DNA of 61,348 nucleotides, counting the filler. It is 5 parts of 5 records of this genome, joined end to end, with 100 filler letters (N's around TTAATTAATTAA, not from the genome) between each part and the next. Parts side by side here need not be neighbours in the genome. Positions count along the whole stretch, not along the records: positions 1 to 7,907 come from SRR31156797_24028; 4 more parts are not named here. The stretch is one strand, 5' to 3'. Within the stretch, counting starts at the first letter, position 1; every line of letters begins with the position of its first letter. This document shows positions 1 to 15,565 of this stretch, piece after piece. Below the pieces are notes generated by a model. It did no database searches. It was not told the DNA's origin and worked only from the letters and a program-made list of their open reading frames with translations. Made by a program: the position numbers and the translations under genes.

Positions 1-151
1 TGTTTCTTGCTCTGCTTGCTCCGGTGGTTTCAGCTCTGGCATTATAAACAGTGTTTCTTGCTCTGCCTTTTCCGGTGGTTTTAGCTCCGGCATTTCAAAT
101 GCTGCTGTTTGCTCTGTCTGTATCGGTGGTTTTGACTCTGGCATTTCAAAC
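1..151 (-). repeat. 51-bp (17-aa) coding tandem repeat, at least 3 units, truncated by window edge
   Basis: FEMPESKPPIQTEQTAA / FEMPELKPPEKAEQETL / FIMPELKPPEQAEQET. Confidence 0.9.
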
Positions 152-825
152 ACTACCGTTTCTTCTGACTGTACGGATGTGACTGCATCAGTATCATTTT
201 GAGGAAATTCAGGTGTACTAATTTTTTCAGCTACCATTTCAGATAATGTAGCCTCATGGATATCATCATCTGCTGCAACCTGCATTACTGATTTGCTTTC
301 CTGAGCCGGGGTAGTTCTGGCAGTTTCAGCTTTTACTGGTTCAGAAATTGCTGATTCTTTCTTTTCCTTCTCAGTTGCCTGTAATTTGGCAGTCTCTAAA
401 CCGGGTTGTTCTGTATATGCCAAATCTATCTCTTCTGCAGAAATTACTTCATCTGCAGAATCAGTAGTATATGTATCTATTTTTTCTTCAAGATCAGGCA
501 TAATTTCTGATTCCACATTTTCTATGCCTGTACTTTCTTCCATATGCCCGGAAATTTCAGATTTGTCTGTATGATCCTGAGTCCCTATAATATTGCTTCT
601 TCCCGGGAAATTAGTTTCAATCATTTCAAGCCTGCTGGAAATGGTGTTCACTTCTTCCTTGAGGATCGCAAATCTTTCAGGCCATGGCAGCACTTCGTCT
701 GAAGGAGAATTCTCCAATGCGTCAAGCTCCCTCTCGATTAATTTTCTGATGAACAGGCTCTTATTCTCTATTACTTCCAATTTGTCAAAAAGTTCATCAG
801 ACATGCTGATAGTAAGTCGTTTCAT
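1..825 (-). CDS. Ribbon-helix-helix (CopG/Arc-like) N-terminal domain protein with long acidic low-complexity/repeat region; 3' end outside window
   Basis: Absent from ORF track. Manual translation from ATG at 825 gives MKRLTISMSDELFDKLEVIENKSLFIRKLIERELD..., an RHH beta-alpha-alpha pattern; frame stays open to base 1; E/S/T/P-rich. Confidence 0.8.
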   Translation of the reverse strand, partial: MKRLTISMSDELFDKLEVIENKSLFIRKLIERELDALENSPSDEVLPWPERFAILKEEVNTISSRLEMIETNFPGRSNIIGTQDHTDKSEISGHMEESTGIENVESEIMPDLEEKIDTYTTDSADEVISAEEIDLAYTEQPGLETAKLQATEKEKKESAISEPVKAETARTTPAQESKSVMQVAADDDIHEATLSEMVAEKISTPEFPQNDTDAVTSVQSEETVVFEMPESKPPIQTEQTAAFEMPELKPPEKAEQETLFIMPELKPPEQAEQET

Positions 826-1013
826 AGCAATCTCTCTTTGATGTTCATTTGTGTAGGATCATACTAGTGTATGCATATATCATACATATATAATTAATGG
901 AAATATATTTTTATGGACATGTTACATGCTGCATGTGTATGAATAAGAAATAAAAAATAAGAAAAATGGCAGTAGCTGCCTGACACAAAAAAAGACATGC
1001 ATGTGAGCGATGT

Positions 1014-1787
1014 TCACATTGACTTTTTACATTCGGGACAAGCCTTGCCCTTTGTAGTCTGGATAAACGAATGTTTTGGTGTTATGCACTTGCATAGGGG
1101 ACACAAATCATTGGCTTTAAATATTTTCTCTACTGACTGCAGATCAGCTTCATAGATATGGGTGTCCCATCCGGTGGATATCAGTGATTCAATCTCGTAA
1201 GGAAGGTCTTGTTCCCTGAATACTTTTTTGAATCCTTCTACAATAGCAGGGATGTTAGCAGGGAATCCTCCAAATGCGTCCCATGAACGATACAGCAGGT
1301 ATATTCTGACCTGCGTTTCATTAAGAAGTTCCACTTTGTATGCTATCCAGCATGGCTGGTCTTCAAATTTAGGGATGTGAACCTCATTTTCCCACAGGAC
1401 GCCTACATGTCTCCTTGAGCCGGGCCTCAGGTTACTTACATTTTCATGAAGTGTGTTGTATGCAGTTTCTCCATATCTGAACAGCTGTTTAGCATAGCAG
1501 TAGTCAAATTTCCTTTTATCGTCATCATTGAGTGAAACATACCAGTCAGCGTATTCTTCTGTGAGTTCTTCCTTGTATTTTTTGATTAGGTTTTCTCCAA
1601 AGGGAACAGCAAAGCTGACTTGCCTGTTGTTTACATCTTTGATTTGTATGGTGGCATGTATCCTCTTTGTTTTTGTTTTGTAGTCTGGCTCGTGTATCTC
1701 TCCCTTAGTGTGTATTTCATAAATCAACTGGGACCATGCAGATGCAATGGTTTTTGCTTTAATGAGTACGGCTTCCATATCGTTCAT
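1014..1787 (-). CDS. Thymidylate synthase (archaeal ThyA-type) family protein with C-terminal CxxC...CxxC zinc ribbon
   Basis: Motifs SRR, QPC (catalytic Cys), YRSWD-x-FGGFPAN, THIYE; C-terminal CPLC and CPEC. Confidence 0.8.
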   Translation of the reverse strand: MNDMEAVLIKAKTIASAWSQLIYEIHTKGEIHEPDYKTKTKRIHATIQIKDVNNRQVSFAVPFGENLIKKYKEELTEEYADWYVSLNDDDKRKFDYCYAKQLFRYGETAYNTLHENVSNLRPGSRRHVGVLWENEVHIPKFEDQPCWIAYKVELLNETQVRIYLLYRSWDAFGGFPANIPAIVEGFKKVFREQDLPYEIESLISTGWDTHIYEADLQSVEKIFKANDLCPLCKCITPKHSFIQTTKGKACPECKKSM

Positions 1788-1840
1788 CCCTTTGAAATAA
1801 AAATGGTTTTATTAAATTAAATGTATGCGCCTTGATATAA

Positions 1841-2704
1841 TCATTTTTGTTCTCTGTCAGTTGTCTGGGTGTTATGTTTTCCCACAAGTGCACTTGCAAG
1901 CATTATGGCTTTGGTATAGTGTCCTCCCACCCTTGAAGTATCCACAAACACGTAGTCATCCATCAATATGGGTGCACCAAGTCCGTCTCCTCCGCCAAGG
2001 AATACAAGTGTTCTGAATATCAGATTACCTGAAATACCATCAGGAGCAAGGATAAAATTTGCCTCCTTTATAGCATCCTCTATCAGTATTGTGTAATGCT
2101 TTGCATCTATTCCCTGTTCCTTAATCCTGTTGACGATGAAGTCTCCTTCAGCCAGCGTTTGGTCAACACGGGGGTTTCTTCCCAGATCTCCAATCCTTCC
2201 TCCTGAAAGGATGCCTACCACTGGTTCAATGTCAAATCTGCGGATATATTCTACACCAAGTTTTATGAACTCGATTTTGTCAGCTAGTTCATTACCTTCA
2301 TCTATGCCCACAGGTGCTATGAAAAAAGGATCTCCGCTGTTTGTCTGCAGCAATGCAATGCGATGCAGTTTCTCTTGATCCAGTATTTTCTTAAGGTGAG
2401 TCAGTGTCTGGGATGCTCCTGCAGTTCCCCTTACGGCTGCATCGATGTATCTGGATTTAAGTAGGTCACCCAGAGTTCTTTCCGGGTCATTGGTCCCAAT
2501 AATCTCGAGGTCAGTTCCTATTTCCTCAATTTCTTTTTTATTTCCTACCAGCAGTACGTGAGCATAACCTGCTTCATGTGCTTCCCTGGCACTTTTAAGC
2601 ATTTTAGGACTGGGATTGCGTACTCCTATGGCAACTCTTGCCTTATTCTGTAATGCCCTTTTTTCTATCAGGCCAAGAAGGTTTTCTGTACTTTTTGATA
2701 CCAT
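1841..2704 (-). CDS. mtxX: Methanogenesis marker protein MtxX (Mmp4); likely start MVSKS at 2704
   Basis: Motifs [16 protein letters not shown], LSGGRxGDLGR, [26 protein letters not shown]. Confidence 0.85.
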
Positions 2705-2791
2705 AGCAAGATACCTACCATTATTAATATCAACTAAAAGAGACAAAGTGGTGCAAACATTAATTACTTTTCCTGAATATTGGGTATAATC

Positions 2792-4276
2792 ATGACTGTG
2801 CAGATGGAATGGGCAGAAAAGTACAGGCCACATACACTTGATGATGTGGTTGGTCACAAAAAAGTAATAAGTGATCTCCGAAAATGGGGCGAACAATGGG
2901 AGCATGGTGTGCCAGAATTAAAGGCAGCGCTGCTGCATGGTTCAGCTGGCATCGGAAAGACGTCTTCTGCACATGCTCTTGCAGATGATCTGGGTTGGGA
3001 AGTAATCGAACTCAATGCCAGTGACCAGAGAACTGCTGGTGTAATCGAAAAGATTGCAGGTTCTGCTTCTACTATGAGCACGCTTACTGGTTCCTCTGCA
3101 AAAAGGATGATAGTACTTGACGAGGCCGATAATCTTCATGGGAATAGTGACCGCGGAGGTTCCCGAGCAATAATCGATGTTGTCAAAAAAACAAACCAGC
3201 CTGTTGTTCTTATTGCCAATGACCTGTATGGTATTTCTTCTTCATTACGCTCGTTATGTCTTGAACTTAAATTTGGTTCTGTGCAGTCTCGTTCCATGAT
3301 TCCTGCCCTCAAAAGGATCGCACAGCAGGAAGGTATCATGTGTGGAGTAGGGGTTATTGAAAAGATCGCTGCATCAGCTGATGGAGATTTCAGAAGTGCT
3401 GTAAACGATCTCCAGGCAGTGGCCCTGGGTCGCACAGAAATTGAAATAGAAGATATATCCACATCTGATCGTGACAATAAGGAATCTATTTTCAAGGTTG
3501 TTGGCAGGATATTCAAGGGCAAGGATGTGTCTTCAGCACTCGACGCTACTTACAATCTTAATGAGACTCCTGAGGACCTTATTCACTGGATTTGTGAGAA
3601 CCTGCCTTATCAGTACACAGGAAAAGGCGAAGAAGCACTTACAGAGGACATTATTCATGGATATACTTACATCTCTCGGGCTGATCGTTTTCTGGGTCGT
3701 GTGCGCAGGCGCCAGAACTATCGTATGTGGCGTTATGCGGGCATGTTAATGACTGGTGGGACTGTAGTATCAAAGACACGAGTACGAGGTGGTTTTGTCA
3801 GGTATCAGCCACCTTCACTGTGGAGAAAAATGGGTCAGATGCGCGCTAAAAAGAATATGCGCAATAATATTGCTGTAAAGGTTGGTGCGCATTGCAATGA
3901 ATCCATGCGCTATTCCCGGCTTGAAGTGGCAAGTCTGTATTCAAAGCTTTTACAGACTGAAGGGTATGACAGGGAAGTTATTGCAGCACTTGGTCTGGAC
4001 ATGGATGAATTACTTTATTTGCTGGGTGCTAAAAAGGTAACTAAAAAAATCCAGCTGGTATATGATGAGGCACAAAAACTGCGCACATCTGCTTATCCTT
4101 CAGACGAACCTGCCTTTTTTGTGGAAAAAACAGCATCTAAGTCTAAAAAAGACCCTTCTCAAATGAGTCTTGACAAGTTGCCAATTCCTTCTCAGGATGG
4201 AAGCGTTTCTGAAAAAACATCAGTTTCAAAGGATAAACCTGCAAAGAAACCTCAGAAGACTCTCTTTGATTTCTGA
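2792..4276 (+). CDS. rfcL: Replication factor C large subunit
   Basis: WAEKYRP, Walker A GSAGIGKTS, IELNASDQR, Walker B LDEAD, C-terminal PIP box QKTLFDF. Confidence 0.95.
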   Translation: MTVQMEWAEKYRPHTLDDVVGHKKVISDLRKWGEQWEHGVPELKAALLHGSAGIGKTSSAHALADDLGWEVIELNASDQRTAGVIEKIAGSASTMSTLTGSSAKRMIVLDEADNLHGNSDRGGSRAIIDVVKKTNQPVVLIANDLYGISSSLRSLCLELKFGSVQSRSMIPALKRIAQQEGIMCGVGVIEKIAASADGDFRSAVNDLQAVALGRTEIEIEDISTSDRDNKESIFKVVGRIFKGKDVSSALDATYNLNETPEDLIHWICENLPYQYTGKGEEALTEDIIHGYTYISRADRFLGRVRRRQNYRMWRYAGMLMTGGTVVSKTRVRGGFVRYQPPSLWRKMGQMRAKKNMRNNIAVKVGAHCNESMRYSRLEVASLYSKLLQTEGYDREVIAALGLDMDELLYLLGAKKVTKKIQLVYDEAQKLRTSAYPSDEPAFFVEKTASKSKKDPSQMSLDKLPIPSQDGSVSEKTSVSKDKPAKKPQKTLFDF

Positions 4277-4679
4277 GCTTGTTTGCTTGGTTAATTTCTA
4301 TATGTGTGGACACGGTGTAATTGATGATATCTTCTACATTGATATATCTATATTAAATAATAGACTTTTCATTATCGCTATTATTTAGTACACTATTAAT
4401 AGTATATATTGTTAATAATACCTGTCGCAGTATCATGGTTTTGTATTATTAGATCAACTAGGGATTTCTGAAGTATGAATGATTCAATCTCATAATGCAC
4501 AATTATTTGTAAAGTCTGTTTATTCTGTAGGATTTATTTAACCCTATAGAAAAAAGGATTCTTTTATTATTATATGGTTTATTATGAAATATACTAAAAG
4601 TAATATTCATTGACAGATAGAACTTTTACATTCAGTAAGTTAATTTTTCATACAGACTTATAGGTGATTCAATGAAAAC

Positions 4680-4755
4680 AGTAAAAATGGAGTGGAGTAT
4701 GAGCGGGTTGGGGAGTGGGGGTTATTGTCAAAAAGAGGATAACCCGCTCATCTAA
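4680..4755 (-). ncRNA. Candidate small RNA, copy 1 (hairpin enclosing C-rich loop)
   Basis: 11-bp stem 4699-4709/4741-4751; minus-strand TTTATATA at 4777-4784 about 25 nt upstream; T-rich 3' end; 25-nt identity with 7126-7150. Confidence 0.6.
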
Positions 4756-4776
4756 TCTGTATTATATCTATTACAG

Positions 4777-4784
4777 TATATAAA
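4777..4784 (-). promoter_or_regulatory. Archaeal TATA box for candidate sRNA copy 1
   Basis: TTTATATA on minus strand at canonical distance from the hairpin. Confidence 0.55.
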
Positions 4785-5120
4785 GCTTACTATGATACTC
4801 ATAATGATGATGAGGTGCTGTTTTCAATGTTTCCTTTTGATATTGAATCTACATGTTTATGATCTTTCTCAATTAATATGAAATGCACATAGATACCCAC
4901 TAAATACCTTACATCCCACTTTTGTCTAGTGACTATAAATGATAATTGGAGTAATTATGCCCATTTTCTTCCTTTTTGAAATAAAAGTGATATCCATTCT
5001 CTTATTAGATATGTCAATTTATTATTCATTCACAGGTCAGAGAGACGTTGTTACCATAGCCATCTGAACTAAGGTTTTGTCTTCCATTGAATGTAAATTC
5101 CGGATAAATCATGGGCTTTA

Positions 5121-5522
5121 GGCTCTGTAGAATTCCTCATTTGAATGGCCTGCGTGATCATGCAGACCAGTCATGATTGCACACCCTCCATTTTGTAAAA
5201 ATCCCACGGTTTTTAATTACCAGTATGCAGAAAAAATTAAAGTCAATATATTCTGTCATCATCGTTTCGGATCGTGCTGGCTTCGCCGGGATCCTCCGGG
5301 ATGGTTGAAGTTGTTCATACTTTTTGATTAGTTTAACTAGTTCTTCCCTGCTAGCCTTATGTTTCCGATAGTTATACAAAAAATCATTAAAAAGCAAGAA
5401 GCAGTTTGATTACCCGCCGCATGCGGCATGTTCCTTCGCAACCATCCTGGAGACTAATTAAATAATTCTATTATTGAAAGTTACTGAGTTCAAAGTCACA
5501 ATTTGCAGGTTTATACAGAGTC
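5121..5522 (-). mobile_element. ~400-bp non-coding MITE-like element with imperfect terminal inverted repeats (copy A)
   Basis: Ends GGCTCTGTAGAA (5121-5132) and TTATACAGAGTC (5511-5522), 10/12 inverted match; reverse complement is colinear with 46596-46998. Confidence 0.7.
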
Positions 5523-5542
5523 CAGATATACATGTATTATAT

Positions 5543-5770
5543 TCATTTTTTCAGCTGCTTTTTTGCCATCATACCCGTGACTGTTGTGTAAGCAAAAATA
5601 ATTACTCCCAGCCACAATATAGGATCACCTATCTCCTTATACCCCAAAATAGAAAGTGCAAGACCTGCACTAAGAATAAGGACATTGACTTTAAGCAGTT
5701 GTTTGTTACGACGAAGAATGGCAATGTTCTTTTGCCTTTTACTAATCATTTCTTTCTTGTTCATGTTCAT
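5543..5770 (-). CDS. Small two-helix membrane protein, hypothetical
   Basis: 75 aa, two hydrophobic segments, 4 bp downstream of sua5. Confidence 0.7.
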   Translation of the reverse strand: MNMNKKEMISKRQKNIAILRRNKQLLKVNVLILSAGLALSILGYKEIGDPILWLGVIIFAYTTVTGMMAKKQLKK

Positions 5771-5774
5771 TAGA

Positions 5775-6827
5775 CTACACCCTGATAATCATATCTGATG
5801 CTTTGCGCACTCTGTTGAAAACTGCCATACCAATTCCATCCTGTCTAAAAGAACCGTCCACTACAATCACATCAACCTTTTTTTCATCCAGGTAACGTAA
5901 TCCATAGAACAGGTTCTTTGCAGCATTCTCCGGTTTGTCCTTTTCTCCAAGGGAATAAAATAATTTTCCTGGAAAAATCGATACTGATTCAGATGTAAGC
6001 AGAAGTCCTATGCCTGCACCCCTCAATTCCAGATCATCCAGAAGCTCCTTTATTCTGGAAACTACTCTGTTATGTTTTCCTTCAACTAGAATTACACTGG
6101 ATTCTGGCGAATAATGGATATATTTCATCCCTGGTGAACGCACTGTTTCACTCTCAGGGTGAACCTTATCATCATAACCTATTCTGACTTCTCCTACACA
6201 TTCTTCCAGTTCCTTCTTGCTTACTTTTCCAGGTCTCAGGATAACAGGGATTTCAGCAGTTACATCAACAACCGTTGATTCAACACCTATGACAACATCT
6301 CCGCCATTAATGACAGCATCAATTCTTCCACCAAGATCTCTTAAAACATGGTCTGCAGTTGTTGGACTTGGTTTCCCGGAAAGGTTTGCACTTGGAGCAG
6401 CTATGCATTTTCCTGAATACTTTATAAGGTCAAGGGCGATTCTGTTTTCAGGCATTCTTACAGCCACAGTATCCAGGCCTCCCGTGGTAATATCGGGGAC
6501 ATATTCCTGTCGCGTCATTACAAGACTTAAAGGACCCGGCCAGAATTTATCCATCAAAAGAGATGCTTTATCGGGTATGTTCCTGACAAGTTTCTTGCAT
6601 CCCTCTCTGGAATCAACATGAACTATTAGTGGATTATCTGCTGGTCTGCCCTTTGCTTCAAATATCCTGGCCACAGCTTTTTCGTTAAGTGCATCTGCCC
6701 CAAGACCATAGACTGTTTCAGTGGGAAAGGCAACAATTCCTCCACTACTGAGTATACGTGCTGCTTCCTGAATCTGCTCTTCACGAGCCTGCTTGCTTAT
6801 ACGGAACACCTTTGTATCTTTATTCAT
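5775..6827 (-). CDS. sua5: L-threonylcarbamoyladenylate synthase (Sua5 type, with SUA5 C-terminal domain)
   Basis: AFPTETVYGLGA, KGRPADNPLIVH, AAPSANLSG, PGMKYxHYSP. Confidence 0.95.
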   Translation of the reverse strand: MNKDTKVFRISKQAREEQIQEAARILSSGGIVAFPTETVYGLGADALNEKAVARIFEAKGRPADNPLIVHVDSREGCKKLVRNIPDKASLLMDKFWPGPLSLVMTRQEYVPDITTGGLDTVAVRMPENRIALDLIKYSGKCIAAPSANLSGKPSPTTADHVLRDLGGRIDAVINGGDVVIGVESTVVDVTAEIPVILRPGKVSKKELEECVGEVRIGYDDKVHPESETVRSPGMKYIHYSPESSVILVEGKHNRVVSRIKELLDDLELRGAGIGLLLTSESVSIFPGKLFYSLGEKDKPENAAKNLFYGLRYLDEKKVDVIVVDGSFRQDGIGMAVFNRVRKASDMIIRV

Positions 6828-7046
6828 GGCCTGATCAGAGTTTAAGGCTGATACATTGATAATGCATCTGCAATGGACTATAAATGTTTGATATTGGTTT
6901 TACAGAGAGATGAAGTTATAATATATAGCAATACTCATGAATTATTTTGTTCACAGATGTGACTAATATATATAATTTTAATATGACAATGATGCCATAT
7001 TGAATTATATTTTATCCTTTTACGATATATTTTTTTAAGTATGGCC

Positions 7047-7069
7047 CGAAAAAGGTAACCCTTTTATAC
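7047..7069 (+). promoter_or_regulatory. BRE/TATA-like promoter for candidate sRNA copy 2
   Basis: Purine run CGAAAAAGG followed by TTTTATAC (7062-7069), about 22 nt before the hairpin. Confidence 0.5.
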
Positions 7070-7087
7070 TATAGTTCCATCTAGTCA

Positions 7088-7160
7088 CGCTGTGAGCGGG
7101 TCTGTTTTTAACCCCACTCCCACACTAACCCCCACTCCCCAACCCGCTCACGTTACTATA
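7088..7160 (+). ncRNA. Candidate small RNA, copy 2 (hairpin enclosing two CCCCACUCCC motifs)
   Basis: 10-bp stem GTGAGCGGGT 7092-7101 / ACCCGCTCAC 7142-7151; loop has two AACCCC(C)ACTCCC units. Confidence 0.6.
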
Positions 7161-7222
7161 ATGGGGAAAGAAGAATAAAGAACACTCGATTATTACTTCT
7201 CTGAAAGGGTGCTTGAAAGTGT

Positions 7223-7592
7223 GTGATCGTAGGCCTGATATGGTCTATTGGATTTTATATTGCAGGAATAAATGGCTGTTTCTTCCTTGGACTCATTACA
7301 GGAATTCTCATCATTGTACCATATATCGGTCCTGTGTTAGGTGTATTCTACGGTGATAGTTGCTTTCAGTATAAGTCCCATCACTGTCGTTCTGGTGATG
7401 ATCACTGTCGTCATAGCTCAGCTTGTGTACAACCTCTATCTTATTCTTTACGTGATCTCGACCAAAGGTGATGTAGATCCCTTACTCAGTATACTTCTGC
7501 CAATCATCTTTGCGGACATACTGGGTGCTCTGGGCATGATACTTTCTATCCCTGCCTATGTCGTCTATAAAGTTGTACTAACTGAATTCTAG
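7223..7592 (+). pseudogene. AI-2E family transporter remnant (5'-truncated, frameshifted near 7345)
   Basis: Frame 1 ...LGLITGILIIVPYIGPVLG; frame 2 ...AQLVYN...DPLLSILL...LGALGMILSIP, together the C-terminal half of an AI-2E permease. Confidence 0.7.
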
Positions 7593-7907
7593 AATAAAGT
7601 GTTGAAGATATACTCAGATGAGTAAGATCTACTTTGTATTGGGCGTATTTTATTATTTGTTGTTATCGAAGCGCTGTAGAAATGCTTATTTGATAAATAG
7701 GTACAAGGAATAATGAATTTGTGAAGTGGGTTCCAGACTAAAAACCAGGAATAAACAAAATCATTACTTTGTGTTTTTGATTACAGGTAACACTCAGGTG
7801 AATAATAATTCTTTTAAATTATAATTGAAAAAGAAAAAAAGAAGTAATTTTTTAACAGATAATCTTTTTGATGTAATCTACCAAATTATACCTTTAATTC
7901 CTTCAGA

Positions 7908-8007
7908 NNNNNNNNNNNNNNNNNNNNNNNNNNNNNNNNNNNNNNNNNNNNTTAATTAATTAANNNNNNNNNNNNNNNNNNNNNNNNNNNNNNNNNNNNN
8001 NNNNNNN
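7908..8007. other. Artificial contig-joining spacer
   Basis: N run + TTAATTAATTAA (7952-7963, stops in all six frames) + N run. Confidence 0.98.
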
Positions 8008-8008
8008 A

Positions 8009-8386
8009 TTAGAAGGAGAATTAACTTTAACTGAAGCAGTTTCTTCAGGAACTGTTGAAACTTCTGAAGCTTTAGATGCTAAAGCAATCATCGCTTTAAC
8101 TGAAACTGGAGCTACAGTAAGAAACATCAGAAAATTATTCCCTACTGCTATGATTTTAGCAATCACTCCAAATGCACAAACTGCAAGACAGTTAATGCTT
8201 ACAAGAGGAGTTTATCCTACAGTTGTTGAAGGAATCAACACAGCTGAAGAAATGAACACAAAAGCTATGGAAGTTGCTGCTAACACAGACTTCATCGTTG
8301 ATGGAGATGTAGTTGTAATGACTTCAGGAGAACACAGTAAAGCTGGAACAACTAACTTAATGAGAGTTGCAGTTGTAAAAAAATAA
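8009..8386 (+). CDS. pyk: Pyruvate kinase, C-terminal part (5' end outside contig)
   Basis: TEAVSSGTVETSEALDAKAIIALTETGATVRNIRKLFP...ARQLMLTRGVYP...GDVVVMTSG...GTTNLMRV. Confidence 0.92.
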   Translation, partial: LEGELTLTEAVSSGTVETSEALDAKAIIALTETGATVRNIRKLFPTAMILAITPNAQTARQLMLTRGVYPTVVEGINTAEEMNTKAMEVAANTDFIVDGDVVVMTSGEHSKAGTTNLMRVAVVKK

Positions 8387-8407
8387 TTATTAAATTAATT
8401 TATATTT

Positions 8408-8434
8408 TAAAGAGGGTTTTTGACCCTCTTTTTT
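8408..8434 (+). terminator. Rho-independent terminator after pyk
   Basis: AAAGAGGGT-loop-ACCCTCTTT plus T run. Confidence 0.8.
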
Positions 8435-8475
8435 ATATGTAAAAAAATACAAACTTGTAAGCTGAAAGATTTTTT

Positions 8476-8517
8476 AATATCACAGTAACTTATTTTTAAA
8501 TAAGTTACTGTGATATT
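8476..8517. repeat. Perfect 20-bp inverted repeat with 2-nt spacer
   Basis: AATATCACAGTAACTTATTT-TT-AAATAAGTTACTGTGATATT. Confidence 0.9.
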
Positions 8518-8942
8518 TTTGTTACTAAATTAAATGAATTTTGGATTTAAGGAAAGCTTATTTTATGATATAAAGTCTTATAATTATCGAAAAAATTCGA
8601 AATAAAGTTCGAAAAAGAGATTTGTTTTTTTTAACTGTACAGTGAAAGTAAAAAAACAGTCAGAAAATGGTGCTAAGTTTGACAAAATAAAAAAATAATA
8701 GAAAAAGTTGATTTCTGATTTAAAAAGTTCTTAAATAATAGTAAAGAATATGATATAATAGACAATAAATTGACTAATCCAAAAAGAGGGTTTTCTTTTG
8801 AAAGTGTAGTATAATTAATGTGAGGTTATCAAAAGAAACAGGTAAACGAAAAAATATTCAAAATACCTATTTGTCAGGTTTGATTTTTGGAGAGGTAAAG
8901 ATATTTCGAAATTTGTAATAGAAGTTGAAAGGAGAGAAATAA

Positions 8943-9533
8943 GTGACAAATTCTTTGGAGAAGCTTATAGATCAATTCAATAAACTTCCCGGAATTGGTA
9001 AAAAAACCGCCTATCGACTAGCGTTTGCAGTACTAGAGATGGAAAAGGAAGAGGTTGAAAAATTTGCTGATACTTTAAATGAGGTAAAAAGCAAAGTGAA
9101 AAAATGTAATGTTTGCGGAAATTTTAGTGAAGAGGAAACTTGCAGTATTTGTACAAACAGCGAAAGAGACCAAAATGTAATTTGCATAGTCGAGGATGCT
9201 AAAGATATCATAGCTATGGAAAGAGCAGGAAGCTACAATGGAGCATATCATGTGTTGCATGGTAAAATTGCTCCACTTAGTGGAATGGGAATAGAGGAGT
9301 TAAATATTAAATCACTACTTCAAAGAGTTGCAGAGAGGGAAATTAAAGAGATCATTTTAGCGCTTAACCCTGATTTAGAAGGTGAAACAACGGCGCTCTA
9401 TATTAGTAAACTTCTAAAGAATTTTGATATAAAAATATCAAAACTTGCCAGTGGAATTCCAATGGGTGGGAACTTGGAATTTTCAGATATTGCAACAATA
9501 GCAAGAGCTTTAGAAGGAAGGACAGAGGTATAA
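8943..9533 (+). CDS. recR: Recombination mediator RecR
   Basis: LPGIGKKTAYRLA HhH, C4 Zn finger, Toprim ICIVE...ALNPDLEGETTA. Confidence 0.97.
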   Translation: MTNSLEKLIDQFNKLPGIGKKTAYRLAFAVLEMEKEEVEKFADTLNEVKSKVKKCNVCGNFSEEETCSICTNSERDQNVICIVEDAKDIIAMERAGSYNGAYHVLHGKIAPLSGMGIEELNIKSLLQRVAEREIKEIILALNPDLEGETTALYISKLLKNFDIKISKLASGIPMGGNLEFSDIATIARALEGRTEV

Positions 9534-9583
9534 CATAATTTAACAATTATGACTATGAAAATAATGTAAAGGGTGAGAAAAAT

Positions 9584-10870
9584 ATGGAAATAATGACTAC
9601 GGTTGAAAAAATTATTTATTTTAGAAAAAAATACAAAATTAGCCAACAAGATTTAGTTAGAGACAAAGTAGCAAGAAGTTACCTTGCGATGGTTGAAACA
9701 GGAAGTAAACCATTAGGAAAGAATTTATTAAGAATTTTAGTTGAAAATTTTGCTGAGATTTTCGCTGAAAGAGGTATCAATGAAACAATTACTGAAGAAT
9801 TTTTACTAAAAACTAAAGAAGAGCAAATTACAGAAAAAACTGAAGAATATTTTGCTAAATTAGATCAAATTGAATTTGGTACTGAAGAATTCGAAGAATT
9901 AATTACAAACATTGAAAAATTATTTTTCAAAGAACATTCTCCAACGAATAAAATTAAATTATTCAAAAAATTAGGAGATATTTATTACACAAAAACTGAG
10001 TATGAAAAATCAAAAAGTTTTTATATTAGAATTTTAAATGAAATGTATCAAACTGAGGATTATGAAACTTTAGGAGAAATTATTATCTCGTTAACTAATA
10101 TTTCTAACTTCTTAAATAGTTTCTCTGAAATTTTAGGATTAGAGCAAAGCTTAAAAGAAAGCTTTAAATTCTTAGAATTTGATATTAGAGGAAAAATTAT
10201 GTTCAATCTTGCTTTAATTCATTTTAACGTAGGAAATTATGAGCAAGCTTTAGAATACTTTGTTATTTTAGAAAAAGAAGCATATAATGATAAAGAGTTC
10301 TTTGAAATTCTAAACATGAAAGCATTATGTTATAAAAATCTTGAAAAATATGACAAAGCAGTTTCAATATACAGAGGTTTATTAATCAGATATGAAGCAC
10401 CTCAAAATAAAATTCTTTGTAATACAAATTTAATGCTTATCTACAAAACTCTTGATGATGAGAAAAAAGTTAAATATTACTTAAGAAAAACTAAAAATCT
10501 TATGAAAGAAATTTACGATAGAAATGAAGAGGATCATCCATTCATTATTCAAGCTGATGCTGTTTTAGGTGAAATTGGTCAATACCTAGGAAATAGTAGA
10601 TTAGCAATTTCTTCATATGAAAAAGCTCTTGAAGCAAAAGATAATTATGAAGGAAATAAAGTTGAATTCGTTGGAAGTAACATTAGAGGTCTTTTAAAAT
10701 TATACGGTGGAAGAGATATCTCCAAAGTAAAAGAATTAGAAGATATCTATTTTGAAACTTTATATAAAAACGAAGGTTATACAGATATCAGCTTTAATTT
10801 CATTGATTATTATTATAGAAATAACTATTTTACTGAAGTAGACAGATATTTAAAAAAAGTAAAAGGTTAA
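9584..10870 (+). CDS. XRE-type HTH plus TPR-repeat transcriptional regulator
   Basis: N-terminal RKKYKISQQDLV...RSYLAMVETG; TPR units such as FNLALIHFNVGNYEQALEYF. Confidence 0.8.
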   Translation: MEIMTTVEKIIYFRKKYKISQQDLVRDKVARSYLAMVETGSKPLGKNLLRILVENFAEIFAERGINETITEEFLLKTKEEQITEKTEEYFAKLDQIEFGTEEFEELITNIEKLFFKEHSPTNKIKLFKKLGDIYYTKTEYEKSKSFYIRILNEMYQTEDYETLGEIIISLTNISNFLNSFSEILGLEQSLKESFKFLEFDIRGKIMFNLALIHFNVGNYEQALEYFVILEKEAYNDKEFFEILNMKALCYKNLEKYDKAVSIYRGLLIRYEAPQNKILCNTNLMLIYKTLDDEKKVKYYLRKTKNLMKEIYDRNEEDHPFIIQADAVLGEIGQYLGNSRLAISSYEKALEAKDNYEGNKVEFVGSNIRGLLKLYGGRDISKVKELEDIYFETLYKNEGYTDISFNFIDYYYRNNYFTEVDRYLKKVKG

Positions 10871-10919
10871 TAAACATTAAATTATATTTTGGTAGTTCTT
10901 CACTAAATAAGTATATATA

Positions 10920-10960
10920 AATAAAAAGCAGTTCTCTTAAACGGGGACTGCTTTTTATTT
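10920..10960 (+). terminator. Rho-independent (bidirectional-looking) terminator
   Basis: AATAAAAAGCAGTTCTC-loop-GGGGACTGCTTTTTATT. Confidence 0.75.
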
Positions 10961-11096
10961 GAACGGAAATATCTAAAAACTTTATTTATTAATATGAATT
11001 TTAAACAGGAAAAATCATGAGTACTTAGTAAACTATAAGATAAGCGATTATTTAGAAAATTATTAGTGAATACTAAACAACAGGAGGAGATGTGCA

Positions 11097-11561
11097 ATGG
11101 AGAAAACTTTTGTTATGATAAAACCTGGTGCTGTTCAAAGAGAGTTAGTAGGTGAAATAATTTCCAGATTTGAAAAAAAAGGAATAAAAATAGTTGGTTT
11201 AAAGATAATGAGAATGACAGAAGATTTGGCAGGGAAACATTATGCTGAACATAAGGAGAAAGCCTTTTTTCCTGAATTAGTTAGCAGTATAACGGCCGGA
11301 CCGCTTATAGTATTAGTATTAGAGGGGAATAACGTTATTAAAACTGCTAGAAAAATGGCAGGAGCAACTAGAGCTGAGGATGCTATTCCGGGAACGATTA
11401 GAGGTGACTACGTACTTGATACCGGTAAAAACGTAATTCATACATCTGATTCTCCTGAAAGTGCGAAAAGAGAAATTGATTTGTTTTTTAAAAAAGAAGA
11501 GATTTTAGATTATACATTAGCAACTGAAGAGTGGATTTATGTATTGCCTAATAGGGCTTAA
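11097..11561 (+). CDS. ndk: Nucleoside diphosphate kinase
   Basis: EKTFVMIKP, PGTIRGDY, NVIHTSDS. Confidence 0.97.
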   Translation: MEKTFVMIKPGAVQRELVGEIISRFEKKGIKIVGLKIMRMTEDLAGKHYAEHKEKAFFPELVSSITAGPLIVLVLEGNNVIKTARKMAGATRAEDAIPGTIRGDYVLDTGKNVIHTSDSPESAKREIDLFFKKEEILDYTLATEEWIYVLPNRA

Positions 11562-11639
11562 ACATTAATTTGTAGGGTTAATTGAGTTGTATTTTCTTGG
11601 TTTTTATGATAAAATTAAATAAAATCAGAGGTGATTTTC

Positions 11640-12083
11640 ATGAAGCAAATAAAAGATGTTATGACTAAAGATGTTATTTGTGTTGATCCTGAAACTTCAT
11701 TAAAAGAAATTGTCGATTTAATGAAAAAGAATGACATAAAGAAAATGCCTGTATTAGATTCCGGTAAAGTTATTGGAGTAGTTAGAGTTGAAGATCTATT
11801 GTACAAAAAGGAGGAAGCACCACTACCTCCAATTTTAGCGATTAATGATTTAATAATTACTTTGCCGAGTAATAAAACTTTTCAAAATAAGTTACAAAAG
11901 CTTACAGCGTATAAAGCCTCAGAAATTATGACTAAAAAGTTTTTACTAGTGGATGTTTCTGAAAATGTTGAAAAGGTTATTACAGAGATAGTAGAAAAAA
12001 ATTATGGCTATACTTTGGTTCAGGAAAATGGAAAGTTAGCCGGAATTATCACGAAAAAAGATTTACTAGACAATATTTTTTAA
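11640..12083 (+). CDS. Tandem CBS-domain protein
   Basis: IKDVMTKDVICV...ASEIMTK...GIITKKDLL; SD GAGGTG before ATG 11640. Confidence 0.88.
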   Translation: MKQIKDVMTKDVICVDPETSLKEIVDLMKKNDIKKMPVLDSGKVIGVVRVEDLLYKKEEAPLPPILAINDLIITLPSNKTFQNKLQKLTAYKASEIMTKKFLLVDVSENVEKVITEIVEKNYGYTLVQENGKLAGIITKKDLLDNIF

Positions 12084-12127
12084 ATAAGTATATAATTGAT
12101 TAATTTTGATATCAAAGTTTTTTATAT

Positions 12128-12151
12128 GCCCTTTTAACTAAGGGCTTTTTT
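12128..12151 (+). terminator. Rho-independent terminator
   Basis: GCCCTT-loop-AAGGGC plus T6. Confidence 0.65.
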
Positions 12152-12206
12152 ATAACATAAGATATTTTGATTAGTCAAAACAAAAATAAGGAAGGTGTAC
12201 AAAAAT

Positions 12207-13487
12207 TTGGAAACATATGGCCAGGTCATTTTTTTAATAGTTTTAATTATCTTATCGGGGTTCTTCTCATCCTCAGAAACTGCATTAACTGCATTTAAAA
12301 TGACTAAATTAAAAAGCATCGAAGAGAAGGACAAGAAAGCATCAGAATTATTGAGAATTTGGCTTAGAAAACCAAATGAATTTTTAACAGGAATTTTAAT
12401 TGGAAACAACGTTGTTAATATACTCGCATCATCTTTAGCAACTGCTTTAGCATTATCAATTATGGGTAATAATTCAAAAAATGCAATTTTAGTAGTAACA
12501 GTTGTCATGACAATTACGATTCTAATATTTGGTGAAATAACTCCAAAGATTGTTGCTAAAAATTATTCGGCTGAAATATCTAGATATGTAATAAGAATAA
12601 TTTATGTCCTTAGTATAGTTCTTTATCCGTTAACTTTGATATTAATTCTTATTTCTAGGACAATTAGCAGATTATTCGGAATAGAAATAAGCGAGAAATC
12701 AATGCTATTAACAGAAGAAGATATCAAATCATTTGTTAGTGTCGGAGAAGAAGAGGGAATACTTGAAGAAGAAGAACGGGAAATGATCCATTCGATATTC
12801 GAATTTGGAGATACAACTGTTAAAGAAGTAATGATACCAAGAACAACTATGTTTACAATTGAAGCATCAAAATCTCTTGAAGAAGTGTGGGACCTGATTA
12901 TAGAGCAAGGTTTTTCTCGAATACCTGTGTATGAAGAAAGAGTAGATAATATATTAGGAATGATATATATAAAAGATCTTTTCACAGTAATAAGAGAAAA
13001 TAGACTGCATGAACCTGTAAAGAATTTTGTACGTCAAGCTTATTTTGTTCCAGAGACAAAGTTACTTGATGAATTATTAGAGGAGTTCAAAAGAGAGCAT
13101 GTCCATATAGCTATTGTTGTAGATGAATATGGAGGAACTGCTGGTATAGTAACAATTGAAGATTTGATTGAAGAGATAGTCGGAGATATTACTGATGAGT
13201 ATGATGTCGACGAGCAAGAAATAAAAGAAGTAGCAGAAGGAAAATATATAATTGACGCAGTTGTTGCGATTGAAGAATTAAATAAAGAACTTGAAATTGA
13301 ACTACCTGAATCAGAAGATTACGATACTTTAGGAGGATATATATACTCAGAGCTTGGCAGAATGCCACTTGAAAATGATAAAGTAGAAGCGGTGGATGTT
13401 GAAATTAAAGTTTTAAAAGTTGAAAAAAGGAGAATTGACCGAGTGCTAATTCTGAAAAAGCAAAACAATGCCAAGCAGGAGGATTAA
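12207..13487 (+). CDS. HlyC/CorC (CNNM-CBS-CorC) family transporter
   Basis: LSGFFSSSETA, IFGEITPK, FSRIPVY, VVDEYGGTAGIVTIEDLIEEIVG, YDTLGGY; probable TTG start at 12207. Confidence 0.92.
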   Translation: METYGQVIFLIVLIILSGFFSSSETALTAFKMTKLKSIEEKDKKASELLRIWLRKPNEFLTGILIGNNVVNILASSLATALALSIMGNNSKNAILVVTVVMTITILIFGEITPKIVAKNYSAEISRYVIRIIYVLSIVLYPLTLILILISRTISRLFGIEISEKSMLLTEEDIKSFVSVGEEEGILEEEEREMIHSIFEFGDTTVKEVMIPRTTMFTIEASKSLEEVWDLIIEQGFSRIPVYEERVDNILGMIYIKDLFTVIRENRLHEPVKNFVRQAYFVPETKLLDELLEEFKREHVHIAIVVDEYGGTAGIVTIEDLIEEIVGDITDEYDVDEQEIKEVAEGKYIIDAVVAIEELNKELEIELPESEDYDTLGGYIYSELGRMPLENDKVEAVDVEIKVLKVEKRRIDRVLILKKQNNAKQED

Positions 13488-13489
13488 AA

Positions 13490-15092: not shown

Positions 15093-15098
15093 TAAATT

Positions 15099-15424
15099 AT
15101 GAAAGAGTGGCGAATTAGTTTAATATATAAAATATTTGTGTTTGTTATTTTACTCTTATCACCTTGGTGGATATTGATGTTAATCAAAGACAAGGAGATA
15201 TTGGTACACAGATATATAATAGTATATGTATTTCAACTTTTTATATTAATTATGAGTTACACTCTTTATGAATTGCGACTCAGAACATATTACAACAAAA
15301 TTATAAAAAAAACTCGTATGATGAATAAAAAATATGGTATTGTAAACAGTTCTTATAGAAAATTCGTAGGACTTGACAGCTTTTATAGTTTTGAATATTA
15401 TTTTAATGAACAAAATGATAAATT
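15099..15424 (+). CDS. Hypothetical membrane protein, 3' truncated by contig end
   Basis: Two N-terminal hydrophobic helices; runs into N gap. Confidence 0.65.
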
Positions 15425-15524
15425 NNNNNNNNNNNNNNNNNNNNNNNNNNNNNNNNNNNNNNNNNNNNTTAATTAATTAANNNNNNNNNNNNNNNNNNNN
15501 NNNNNNNNNNNNNNNNNNNNNNNN
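15425..15524. other. Artificial contig-joining spacer
   Basis: N run + TTAATTAATTAA (15469-15480) + N run. Confidence 0.98.
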
Positions 15525-15554: not shown

Positions 15555-15565
15555 GGGAGTGGGGC

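What the first reader, a model, noticed from the sequence alone, without database searches (positions are those of the whole stretch)
4680..7160. Pair of paralogous archaeal small-RNA candidates sharing a C-rich 25-mer
Seen: TAACCCCCACTCCCCAACCCGCTCA occurs at 7126-7150 (+) and as an exact reverse complement at 4700-4724. In both copies it is the 3' side of a hairpin opened by TGAGCGGGT (stems 7092-7101/7142-7151 and 4699-4709/4741-4751). Each copy has its own TATA-like box ~22-25 nt upstream in the matching orientation (TTTTATAC 7062-7069 on +; TTTATATA 4777-4784 on -). Copy 2 has the CCCCACUCCC motif twice in its loop. Copy 1 has it once, plus a further ACUCCACUCC followed by a U-rich end. 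Inference: these are two independently transcribed ~70-nt RNAs of one family. Their unpaired CACUCCC/CUCC motifs are complementary to GGAG/GGGAGUG ribosome-binding sites, so they may be trans-acting anti-SD regulators or sponges for a C-rich-RNA-binding protein. I cannot tell whether the family is already catalogued.
Basis: partly seen in the sequence, partly recalled or inferred. Interest (0 to 1): 0.8.

Follow-up and report, generated by a model that had tools for sequence, protein, structure and literature searches.

The report
Conserved C-rich-loop small RNA family, Methanosarcinales
The two flagged hairpins are genes for two members of an apparently uncatalogued family of small non-coding RNAs that nearly all methane-cycling archaea of the order Methanosarcinales carry, each showing the same cytosine-rich sequence in an open loop, but what that loop binds is still unknown.

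Summary
The exact 25-mer, both hairpins and both TATA-like boxes lie where stated.

The window's first contig (1-7907) is from a Methanolobus species. The two loci belong to different conserved subtypes of one RNA family. Type A (7092-7151, +) lies beside sua5 in 13 of 18 related loci. Type B (4699-4751, -) is almost letter-identical in five other genomes.

A covariance model finds the family in 147 of 151 genomes sampled from the order. In a phylum-wide sample it hits 19 of 151, and 15 of those are Methanosarcinaceae. Stems differ but stay paired: 96% of cells pair, 9 of 10 pairs show compensatory changes, and 0 of 500 shuffles reach this. The G-poor loop keeps CCCCACUCCCC in 57 of 58 distinct members. 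TATA boxes and T-runs sit at fixed distances.

There is no Rfam match, and I found no description in the papers I could search.

Function is unresolved. The loop pairs with ribosome-binding regions no better than shuffled versions of itself, and I found no conserved target. No transcript of the window loci was seen. The scan's own index holds no look-alike.

The parts
7062..7069 (+). TATA-like box of the type A gene (TTTTATAC; relatives have CTTATATA here)
   Evidence: Sequence; aligned with the conserved TATA box of 13 syntenic loci. Across the family the best TATA-like octamer ends 20-28 nt before the stem in 50 of 66 members.
7075..7083 (+). [quoted passage not shown]
   Evidence: Conserved columns in alignment A1 of the syntenic type A loci. 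It probably lies upstream of the start site, inferred from the 19-22 nt TATA-to-TSS spacing reported for Methanolobus psychrophilus (PMC5378194, passage seen).
7092..7151 (+). Type A RNA hairpin: 10-bp stem (7092-7101 with 7142-7151) closing a 40-nt loop with one G
   Evidence: Fold; model R1 scores 84.7 bits; stem covariation.
7105..7109 (+). U5 tract in the 5' part of the type A loop
   Evidence: A U4+ tract is present in the loop of 57 of 58 distinct members.
7112..7121 (+). First C-rich motif CCCCACUCCC (type A only)
   Evidence: The 29-mer spanning both motifs is found at up to 3 mismatches in 47 of 177 Methanosarcinaceae genomes, most matches exact, against 0 reversed-control matches.
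7129..7140 (+). Family-defining motif CCCCCACUCCCC, ending 1 nt before the 3' arm
   Evidence: CCCCACTCCCC is in the loop of 57 of 58 distinct members. It ends 1 nt before the 3' arm in 55 of the 57 distinct members in which that spacing was scored, and 2 nt in the other 2.
7163..7166 (+). G-run (GGGG) about 12 nt after the type A stem; relatives have GGGAG/GGGGA here; role unknown
   Evidence: Seen by eye in most syntenic type A loci and in the relative's metatranscriptome contigs; absent from types B and C.
4793..4817 (-). Imperfect palindrome CACCTCATCATCATTATGAGTATCA upstream of the type B promoter (candidate regulator site)
   Evidence: CACCTCATCAT..ATGATGA is conserved in all 6 aligned type B loci while the surrounding flanks differ.
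4777..4784 (-). TATA box of the type B gene (TTTATATA on the minus strand)
   Evidence: aligned TATA box in 6 of 6 type B loci.
4699..4751 (-). Type B RNA hairpin: 11-bp stem (4751-4741 with 4709-4699), 31-nt loop with U5 (4734-4730) and CCCCCACUCCCC (4721-4710)
   Evidence: Fold; R1 scores 70.6 bits. The hairpin and tail are identical at all but one of about 63 positions in 6 genomes.
4683..4698 (-). Type B 3' tail ACUCCACUCC followed by a U5 terminator-like run
   Evidence: A T4+ run lies within 45 nt after the stem in 52 of 67 members, against 11 of 66 in the upstream control.
5775..6827 (-). sua5 (threonylcarbamoyl-AMP synthase), the divergent neighbour and synteny anchor of type A; context only, not part of the RNA
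   Evidence: Pfam Sua5_yciO_yrdC 3.5e-62 and Sua5_C 2e-30; used to fetch the related loci.

Best explanation
Both loci are stand-alone genes for small non-coding RNAs of one family.

Anatomy (shown): each gene has an archaeal TATA box about 23-25 nt before a GC-rich 9-12 bp stem. The stem holds open a 27-73 nt loop that is almost free of G. The loop carries a U-tract and then the invariant CCCCACUCCCC, which ends one base before the 3' arm. A short tail and usually a T-run follow.

Sizes (inferred): type B (4699-4751, -) would be about 70 nt. The 3' end of type A (7092-7151, +) cannot be placed in this window.

Mechanism (inferred, not shown): the stem acts as a clamp that presents the loop single-stranded. 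The C-rich motif then pairs in trans with G-rich stretches of other RNAs, most plausibly GGGAG/GGAGUGG-type ribosome-binding regions, and lowers their translation or changes their stability. The U-tract may serve as an Sm-like (SmAP) protein site.

That the loci are real conserved RNA genes I hold at about 0.9. The pairing mechanism I hold at about 0.45.
For: - Exact repeat and hairpins.
- Type A sits at the same place beside sua5 in 13 of 18 Methanosarcinales loci, with the TATA box aligned.
- Type B is near-identical over the predicted transcript in 6 genomes, and identity drops at the predicted start and at the T-run.
- Paralogues keep the loop but have unrelated stems: at least 12 stem sequences.
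- Covariation. A2: 95.2% paired, 8 of 10 pairs changed on both sides, 0 of 500 shuffles. A4 (58 distinct sequences): 96.0%, 9 of 10 pairs, 71 cells, 0 of 500; slid controls 29-52%. A6 (an independent metagenome set, 61 distinct): 94.9% paired, 78 cells against 23 expected, 0 of 500.
- Distribution: 147 of 151 genomes of the order. In the phylum sample 132 of 151 have no match.
- Promoter and terminator statistics against controls.
- Loop statistics: 1.7% G, U4+ in 57 of 58, motif in 57 of 58.
- No conserved reading frame by my reading: U-tract lengths of 5, 6 and 7 shift the frame.
- No conserved same-strand gene downstream.
- GGGGAGTGG followed within 10 nt by ATG occurs 608 times in 177 genomes. 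The reversed control gives about 165 by my hand count of the table. Some of these sites precede real genes.
- Precedent: Methanosarcina mazei sRNA154 and sRNA41 mask ribosome-binding sites (PMC5867862 and PMC6560208, passages seen).
- A relative's copy is present in contigs of 3 metatranscriptome runs from 3 studies.
Against: - No transcript of the window's own loci was seen. The RNA-library contigs are of a relative, at depth 2-6, and run 23 to more than 250 nt beyond the predicted ends, so they show neither ends nor strand and could include DNA.
- In 400 kb of a complete Methanolobus genome the real 20-nt core pairs with 331 start regions at a mean of -7.4 kcal/mol. This is better than gene interiors (-6.0, p 6e-11) but no better than 30 shuffled cores (mean -8.1). 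The affinity is therefore only that of any C-rich sequence.
- Near-perfect complements in 5 genomes are no more frequent than the reversed control. Those I inspected are the family's own genes read backwards, or coding sequence.
- The best single start-region hit (cas3) is not conserved.
- Invariance of the motif across an order, and its fixed place next to the 3' arm, fit a protein or RNP site at least as well as they fit mRNA pairing.
- The enrichment of GGGGAGTGG before ATG is expected of any GGAG-containing word, and some counts are overlapping matches or the sRNA genes themselves.
Confidence: 0.45

Rival explanations
1. The RNAs are real, but the invariant loop is a docking site for a conserved protein or RNP rather than an antisense seed. 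They would then act as a decoy, sponge, scaffold or housekeeping cofactor, in the manner of 6S, Y or CsrB-type RNAs.
For: - The motif is letter-invariant in 57 of 58 distinct members. It ends exactly 1 nt before the 3' arm in 55 of the 57 members scored for that spacing. That kind of positional constraint is usual for protein recognition of a helix-single-strand junction.
- The family is near-universal in the order (147 of 151), which is unusual for mRNA-specific regulators.
- 21 of 58 members carry 2 or more motifs.
- There are tandem gene arrays.
- No conserved RNA target was found.
Against: - No candidate protein was identified. No conserved protein gene beyond sua5 was seen next to the type A copies, and the neighbours of most other copies were not examined.
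- Most members (37 of 58) have a single motif, unlike classical sponges.
- This reading rests largely on the failure to find targets with limited tools.
Confidence: 0.33
2. The RNAs pair with an invariant stable RNA (rRNA or its precursor, SRP RNA, RNase P RNA, tRNA). They would act as a chaperone or guide in ribosome or RNA biogenesis, or as a ribosome-associated RNA.
For: Order-wide invariance of a 15-23 nt single-stranded sequence suggests an equally invariant partner. The best site in RNase P RNA scores -20.4 kcal/mol against a shuffled mean of -17.0 (sd 2.0), with 3 of 40 shuffles as low.
Against: - 16S and 23S loci: best -20.1 kcal/mol against shuffled means of -21.3 and -21.8.
- SRP RNA: -19.9 against -21.2.
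- 5S: -13.1 against -11.8, with 8 of 40 shuffles as low.
- 4 tRNAs: no better than -11.
- The RNase P value is not significant.
- Only one genome was tested, and only 4 of its tRNAs.
Confidence: 0.08
3. The hairpins are not RNA genes but DNA-level or mobile elements: miniature inverted-repeat transposon ends, protein-binding palindromes, G-quadruplex DNA on the opposite strand, or plain terminators of neighbouring genes.
For: - 10-bp inverted repeats.
- Several copies per genome.
- The strand opposite type A has four G-tracts.
- The opposite strand of type B folds stably.
Against: - The arms vary by compensatory change while the interior is invariant, which is the reverse of transposon ends.
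- Type A is syntenic in 13 of 18 loci.
- TATA boxes sit at a fixed 20-28 nt upstream in 50 of 66 members and T-runs lie downstream on one strand only.
- Four G-tracts occur only in two-motif members.
- Type A's downstream neighbour appeared convergent by my reading of the ORF lists, and its upstream neighbour is divergent, so it terminates no same-strand gene.
- 0 matches in viral contigs.
Confidence: 0.04
4. The transcripts encode small proteins (a leaderless GUG/AUG start at the stem), or type A is a 5' leader regulating a downstream gene.
For: In the window, GTG at 7092 opens a 28-codon frame through the loop. ATG at 4750 (-) opens a 7-codon frame (read). Many M. mazei sRNAs turn out to be dual-function (PMC11456600, abstract and passages seen).
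Against: - U-tract length varies (5, 6, 7 T) among type A orthologues, which shifts the frame and brings early stops (my reading).
- Type B stops after 7 codons.
- No conserved same-strand ORF lies downstream in 13 loci.
- In the window the downstream ORFs are two out-of-frame fragments of an AI-2E transporter.
Confidence: 0.03

Closest known systems
Methanosarcina mazei sRNA41 and sRNA154 (intergenic archaeal sRNAs that mask ribosome-binding sites)
   Same: Same taxonomic neighbourhood (Methanosarcinaceae). Both are stand-alone intergenic sRNAs with unpaired loops said to occlude ribosome-binding sites (PMC5867862 and PMC6560208, passages seen).
   Different: I could not see either sequence. 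The sRNA41 paper (PubMed id 29271512), the 2009 transcriptome paper and the 2018 review are not held. Identity with, or difference from, the present family is therefore untested. In the passages I saw, sRNA41 and sRNA154 are described only for M. mazei. The present family is found in 147 of 151 genomes of the order.
RsaE/RoxS of Firmicutes and 6C (B11) of Actinobacteria (C-rich-region sRNAs; my own knowledge, apart from titles and abstracts listed)
   Same: Short, widely conserved sRNAs whose unpaired C-rich tracts are the conserved part and pair with G-rich ribosome-binding regions.
   Different: Those are bacterial, have two or more small hairpin loops, and are Rfam families. Here there is one large G-poor loop closed by a single stem, with archaeal promoters and several paralogues with unrelated stems. 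No Rfam family matches even at E up to 10.
CsrB/RsmZ-type protein-sponge RNAs and 6S/Y RNAs (my own knowledge)
   Same: An invariant short motif is repeated one to three times in exposed positions, there are multiple gene copies, and the distribution is near-universal within a clade. This matches the rival reading.
   Different: No partner protein is known or predicted. There are far fewer motif repeats per RNA than in CsrB. There is no sequence or Rfam similarity.
The 195 intergenic sRNAs of Methanolobus psychrophilus R15, including 'nine highly conserved' cold-induced sRNAs with an upstream 'cold box' (PMC5378194; abstract and passages seen)
   Same: Same genus. These are intergenic TSS-defined sRNAs, some described as highly conserved, with a conserved motif upstream of their promoters. 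Type B here also has a conserved palindrome upstream of its TATA box.
   Different: Whether any of them is a member of this family is unknown.

Membership tests
Any Rfam 15 family | Covariance-model match at or near the family's gathering score | tested here: not met
   No match overlapping either locus at E up to 10 in 4300-7600. No gathering-score match in the whole window.
tRNA / tmRNA | Cloverleaf detected by ARAGORN | tested here: not met
   0 genes in the window.
C/D box sRNA | C box RUGAUGA near the 5' end and D box CUGA near the 3' end (motifs recalled from my own knowledge) | tested here: not met
   By eye, type B begins AGAUGAGC, which is not RUGAUGA. Neither RNA has CUGA near its 3' end. 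No Rfam C/D family matched.
   The arms vary with compensatory changes while the interior motif is invariant. Type A is syntenic in 13 of 18 loci. Target-site duplications were not examined.
Cis-acting leader / riboswitch | A conserved gene downstream on the same strand | tested here: not met
   No conserved same-strand ORF within about 800 nt downstream in 13 type A loci.
Stand-alone archaeal sRNA gene | Own TATA box about 20-28 nt upstream of the RNA | tested here: met
   50 of 66 members. An octamer score of 7/8 or better occurs in 49 of 66, against 6 of 67 in the downstream control. Window: 7062-7069 and 4784-4777.
Stand-alone archaeal sRNA gene | Oligo-T termination signal downstream | tested here: inconclusive
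   T4+ lies within 45 nt in 52 of 67 members, against 11 of 66 upstream. It is present for type B (4687-4683) but absent within 45 nt of the window's type A.
Stand-alone archaeal sRNA gene | A transcript of the predicted size and ends | tested here: inconclusive
   Only contigs of a relative's copy in 3 RNA libraries, at depth 2-6, running beyond the predicted ends.
Structured RNA family | Base pairs kept through compensatory changes | tested here: met
   96.0% paired, 9 of 10 pairs changed on both sides, 0 of 500 shuffles, slid controls 29-52%. Repeated on metagenome loci. On that set one measure, the number of pairs with a double change, was not above shuffles (5 against 4.1; 163 of 500).
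Anti-Shine-Dalgarno / C-rich-seed regulators (RsaE, 6C, sRNA41 type) | The seed pairs specifically with ribosome-binding regions of targets | tested here: inconclusive
   Start regions pair better than gene interiors (p 6e-11) but no better than with shuffled cores. No conserved target was found.
M. mazei sRNA41 | Sequence identity or orthology with the published sRNA41 locus | not testable with these tools
   The paper and its sequence are not held.

The most novel reading that the evidence does not exclude
This is not an ordinary gene-specific regulator. It would be an order-wide, housekeeping-grade RNA of the Methanosarcinales, comparable in standing to 6S or Y RNA. Its invariant loop (ACACUAACCCCCACUCCCCAACC in most lineages) would dock on one invariant cellular partner, a protein or RNP of the translation or RNA-processing machinery. 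The paralogues (types A, B, C and more) would then be differently regulated versions of the same decoy or cofactor. One possibility is that they include the cold-induced 'highly conserved' sRNAs reported without sequence in the main text for Methanolobus psychrophilus.
Probability: 0.25. Interest if true: 0.85.

Novelty: new member of a known kind. Interest (0 to 1): 0.66.

Why it matters
Few if any trans-acting small RNAs of archaea are known (to my knowledge) to be conserved beyond a genus. This one has a sequence-invariant loop in 147 of 151 sampled genomes of the order that holds the Methanosarcinaceae, plus at least 118 metagenome stretches. To my knowledge that order also includes the ANME-2 methane oxidisers.

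It gives a ready covariance model and a precise probe (the complement of CCCCCACUCCCC). It also sets a clear experiment in genetically tractable Methanosarcina: delete the one or two copies, and pull down the partners.

If the partner is the ribosome-binding region of many mRNAs, or a core protein, this would be a general layer of gene control in organisms that drive global methane fluxes. If individual members are already listed by number in transcriptome tables, the family-level picture would still be new as far as I could search. That picture covers the subtypes, the variable stems with a fixed loop, and the order-wide spread.

Tried and rejected
1. Whole-genome search of the window's own genome: none is held.
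2. rRNA pairing: the best 16S/23S sites are no better than for shuffled cores. SRP RNA, 5S and 4 tRNAs are likewise unremarkable. RNase P is marginal, with 3 of 40 shuffles as low.
3. Near-perfect complements (GGGGAGTGGGG at up to 1 mismatch) in 5 genomes: counts are similar to the reversed control. Of the G003 sites, I inspected 5 exact and 7 one-mismatch sites out of 24. They were more family genes, or coding sequence with GDWG-type codons, and none was an Rfam RNA.
4. Best start-region hit in 400 kb of G003 is cas3, with 13 nt complementary to the first type A motif. The same 13-mer elsewhere in the family is almost always the antisense of family genes, so this target is not conserved.
5. 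Best start-region hit in the window (15535-15570, before an S10-like gene, -22.9 kcal/mol) lies on a different, 49% GC contig of the pseudomolecule. It is therefore not a credible target. The window-wide start-region test was null (p 0.67) and is not meaningful for a mixed scaffold.
6. A tandem GGGGAGTGGGGGG site in genomes G015-G020 looked like a target or sponge, but it is a family gene on the other strand.
7. Recurrent GGGGAGTGG sites in other genera carry no Rfam RNA.
8. Coding potential and the leader reading were rejected.
9. A possible outer helix between TTCCATCT (7075-7082) and the downstream G-run appeared in folds that included upstream sequence. It probably lies outside the transcript. 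I did not test it for covariation.
10. Viral contigs: 0 matches.
X1 is a 6,251-nt, depth-185 contig, so it is DNA-like. The uncovered flanks say nothing.
12. Literature:
   - String searches for the motif returned only eukaryotic papers among those listed: 5 of 5, and the 25 listed of 43.
   - Searches for sRNA41, for Methanolobus sRNAs and for conserved C-rich sRNAs of Methanosarcinales found no description.
   - Three key papers are not held.
13. The scan's own notes hold no look-alike sequence. The word search returned only analogous C-rich-loop sRNAs in unrelated genomes.


Full report
**What is in the window**

The 25-mer occurs exactly twice, at 7126-7150 (+) and 4700-4724 (-). None of 100 shuffles produced a match.

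In both places it forms the end of a loop plus most of the 3' arm of a hairpin. GTGAGCGGGT 7092-7101 pairs with ACCCGCTCAC 7142-7151. On the minus strand ATGAGCGGGTT 4751-4741 pairs with AACCCGCTCAT 4709-4699. Each has a TATA-like box 22 or 25 nt upstream on the matching strand (7062-7069; 4784-4777).

The minus-strand copy is followed by ACUCCACUCC and a U5 run (4698-4683). The plus-strand copy has no T4 run within 45 nt. Folding energy alone does not fix the strand, because the opposite strand of copy 1 folds even better.

The window is not one piece of DNA. It is five contigs joined by N44-TTAATTAATTAA-N44 linkers, with GC contents of 39, 28, 49, 44 and 37%. The finding lies on the first piece (1-7907).

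Genes on that piece are:
- RFC large subunit-like AAA ATPase, 2780-4276
- sua5, 5775-6827 (-)
- two out-of-frame AI-2E transporter fragments, 7223-7592

The best relatives of sua5 are Methanolobus genomes, at up to 78% amino-acid identity.

**The two copies are two conserved subtypes**

I fetched sua5 loci and looked at the 18 from Methanosarcinales. Thirteen carry the plus-strand element ('type A') on the same side of sua5 and in the same orientation. The TATA box, stem and loop are aligned and the loop is letter-identical. In one of the thirteen (L007) it lies about 2.2 kb from sua5 rather than about 0.25 kb.

The five loci without it belong to genomes that have family members elsewhere.

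The minus-strand element ('type B') is not at the equivalent place in those loci. However, near-identical copies exist elsewhere in five other genomes of the Methanolobus-type block. Over the hairpin and tail only one of about 63 positions varies, and the flanks differ. Identity begins within 2-3 nt of the stem and ends at the T-run, which is what a transcript of about 70 nt would give.

Type B loci also share an imperfect palindrome, CACCTCATCAT..ATGATGA, about 12 nt upstream of the TATA box.

A third conserved subtype ('type C', stem UUGCACGGGUGG) and further paralogues exist in relatives but not in the window.

**The family**

- The 29-mer spanning both type A motifs occurs, at up to 3 mismatches, in 47 of 177 Methanosarcinaceae genomes. 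Most matches are exact, and there are 0 reversed-control matches.
- The 15-mer AACCCCACTCCCCAA, at up to 1 mismatch, occurs in 115 of 177 genomes (266 matches). The reversed control gives 8 matches by my count of the table.
- In other genera the architecture is the same but the stems differ: ACGAGCGGGU, UUGAGCGGGU, UUGCGCGGGU, GGGCAUCCGGG, GGGCAUCUGG, GAUCGAGCGAG, GAGGCAUGC, UGCGGGGGA, GCUGACGGGUU and others.
- On a 32-sequence alignment the 10-bp stem is 95.2% paired. Eight of 10 pairs change on both sides, and 0 of 500 shuffles reach this.
- A covariance model built from that alignment finds only the two loci in the window with filters off: 84.7 and 70.6 bits. The next best hits are their own opposite strands, at about 20 bits.
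- Across genomes sampled evenly from the order, 147 of 151 have a match at E <= 0.001, with 1-12 matches each.
- In a phylum-wide sample 19 of 151 match. Fifteen of these are Methanosarcinaceae handles seen before, and four others carry weaker but clearly homologous members. The other 132 have none.
- On 68 model hits (58 distinct) the stem is 96.0% paired. Nine of 10 pairs and 71 cells change on both sides, 0 of 500 shuffles reach this, and slid controls give 29-52%.
- These alignments are fitted to the model and so lean towards it. An independent set was selected only by an 18-mer in the loop, from metagenome contigs. That scan returned at least 118 stretches and stopped at its limit, and 80 loci were returned. 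It gives 85 full-length hits (61 distinct rows including 2 truncated hits), 94.9% paired, and 78 double-change cells against 23 expected (0 of 500). One measure there is not above shuffles: the number of pairs with any double change is 5 against 4.1, reached by 163 of 500 shuffles.

**Common anatomy**

- The best TATA-like octamer ends 20-28 nt before the first paired base in 50 of 66 members. The mode is 23-25 nt.
- An octamer score of at least 7/8 occurs in 49 of 66 members, against 6 of 67 in a downstream control.
- A T4+ run follows within 45 nt in 52 of 67 members, against 11 of 66 upstream.
- In M. psychrophilus, BRE/TATA elements lie about 19-22 nt from the TSS (PMC5378194, passage). 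This would put the start 0-5 nt before the stem. That placement is an inference.
- Loops are 27-73 nt long (median 36) and 1.7% G; 30 of 58 have no G at all.
- A U4+ tract is present in 57 of 58 loops, and CCCCACUCCCC in 57 of 58.
- The motif ends 1 nt before the 3' arm in 55 of the 57 members scored for that spacing, and 2 nt in the other 2. Twenty-one of 58 members have two or more motifs.
- Most environmental members read ...UUUUUUAAUACACUAACCCCCACUCCCCAACCUGCCCAU.

**What it is not**

- No Rfam family matches, even at E up to 10.
- There is no tRNA.
- I saw no C/D boxes by eye.
- It is not a leader: no conserved same-strand ORF lies downstream in 13 loci.
- It is not coding: by my reading, U-tract length differences break the frame.
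- It is not transposon-like: the arms vary and the interior is fixed.
- It is not viral: 0 matches.

**Expression**

Only indirect evidence is available. One search for runs and one laying of reads were allowed. Three metatranscriptome runs from three studies hold contigs of 294, 326 and 954 nt at depth 2-6. These match 7105-7151 at 100%, or 7105-7163 with 3 differences. They belong to a relative with a different 5' loop part, and they run well beyond the predicted ends. A fourth run is DNA-like. This shows presence in RNA libraries and nothing more.

**Function**

I tested the obvious partners.
- The conserved core pairs no better than shuffled cores with the 16S/23S operon, SRP RNA or 5S. 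RNase P RNA is marginal.
- Near-perfect complements are no commoner than a reversed control. Where I inspected them, they are family genes read backwards or coding sequence.
- In 400 kb of a complete Methanolobus genome, 331 start regions pair with the core better than 993 intragenic windows do (-7.37 against -6.02 kcal/mol, p 6e-11). Thirty shuffled cores do as well or better (-8.11).
- The top hit, cas3, is not conserved.
- GGGGAGTGG followed within 10 nt by ATG occurs 608 times in 177 genomes, against about 165 for the reversed pattern (my hand count). It precedes some real genes, such as a PAS-domain protein in four genomes. Any GGAG-containing word would show such enrichment.

So the anti-Shine-Dalgarno reading remains plausible by design, and by precedent in M. 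mazei, but it has no specific support. The motif's invariance over an order and its fixed place beside the helix fit a protein or RNP site about as well.

**Prior knowledge**

String searches for the motif found no archaeal paper among those listed. Searches on sRNA41, on Methanolobus sRNAs and on conserved C-rich sRNAs found no description of such a family.

Three sources that could list individual members by number were not readable: the supplements of PMC5378194, and the M. mazei papers. The claim of novelty is therefore limited to 'not in Rfam 15 and not found in the searchable library'. The scan's own index holds no look-alike.

**Verdict**

It grows into a large, well-supported RNA family: real genes, at about 0.9. 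The mechanism is open: base-pairing seed about 0.45, protein/RNP site about 0.33, stable-RNA partner about 0.08, other readings under 0.1.

Noticed in passing
window 7908-8007, 15425-15524, 42844-42943, 52124-52223: The window is a pseudomolecule of five contigs joined by N44-TTAATTAATTAA-N44 linkers. Their GC contents are 39, 28, 49, 44 and 37%. The pieces may come from different organisms, so gene neighbourhoods across the linkers mean nothing.
   Followed up: partly
window 8008-15424: The 28% GC piece carries RecR (8943-9533) and a pyruvate kinase C-terminal fragment (8150-8386). RecR is a typically bacterial protein (my own knowledge). This suggests a bacterial contig binned with the archaeon.
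   Followed up: partly
window 15535-15877: On the 49% GC piece, an S10-like ribosomal protein gene (my reading of the translation) is preceded by AAGGGAGUGGGGCAUG. That is a 10-nt perfect complement of the sRNA motif (-22.9 kcal/mol). It is probably coincidence, since it lies on a different contig.
   Followed up: partly
window 7223-7592: Two overlapping, out-of-frame ORFs match the C-terminal end of an AI-2E family transporter. One matches Pfam below the cut-off (29.6 bits against 34.3). This is probably a frameshifted or truncated gene just downstream of the type A RNA.
   Followed up: partly
window 4793-4817 (-) and loci L113, L114, L116, L118, L124: A conserved imperfect palindrome, CACCTCATCAT..ATGATGA, lies about 12 nt upstream of the type B TATA box. 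It is a candidate regulator-binding site. It might be the 'cold box' mentioned without sequence in PMC5378194.
   Followed up: partly
L129 (G020:C30:10300-12700), L128, L130, L131, L186, L187, L195: In several other genera, family members stand in tandem arrays of two or three genes within 0.2-2 kb, each with its own TATA box.
   Followed up: no
L148, L149, L151, L128, L129, L145-L147: A subtype in the larger (3.7-4.6 Mb) genomes has a small extra hairpin (GGUCAU..AUGACC) inside the loop and a C-rich 3' tail (CCCACCCCCCCAAUAUCAC). The RNA is thus about 100 nt with two stem-loops.
   Followed up: no
window 7102-7141 (opposite strand): The strand opposite the type A loop has four G-tracts, a G-quadruplex-type pattern. 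This holds only for two-motif members, so it is unlikely to be the conserved function.
   Followed up: partly
window 5543-5770 (-): A 75-aa ORF with a hydrophobic stretch and no Pfam match sits directly downstream of sua5. Its conservation was not checked.
   Followed up: no
L237:839 (G003:C1:580839, minus strand): The cas3 gene of Methanolobus sp. WCC5 appears to start at UUG preceded by AAGGAGUGGGGUUAA. That is a 13-nt perfect complement of the first type A motif, and it is unique to this genome among the 177 searched.
   Followed up: yes
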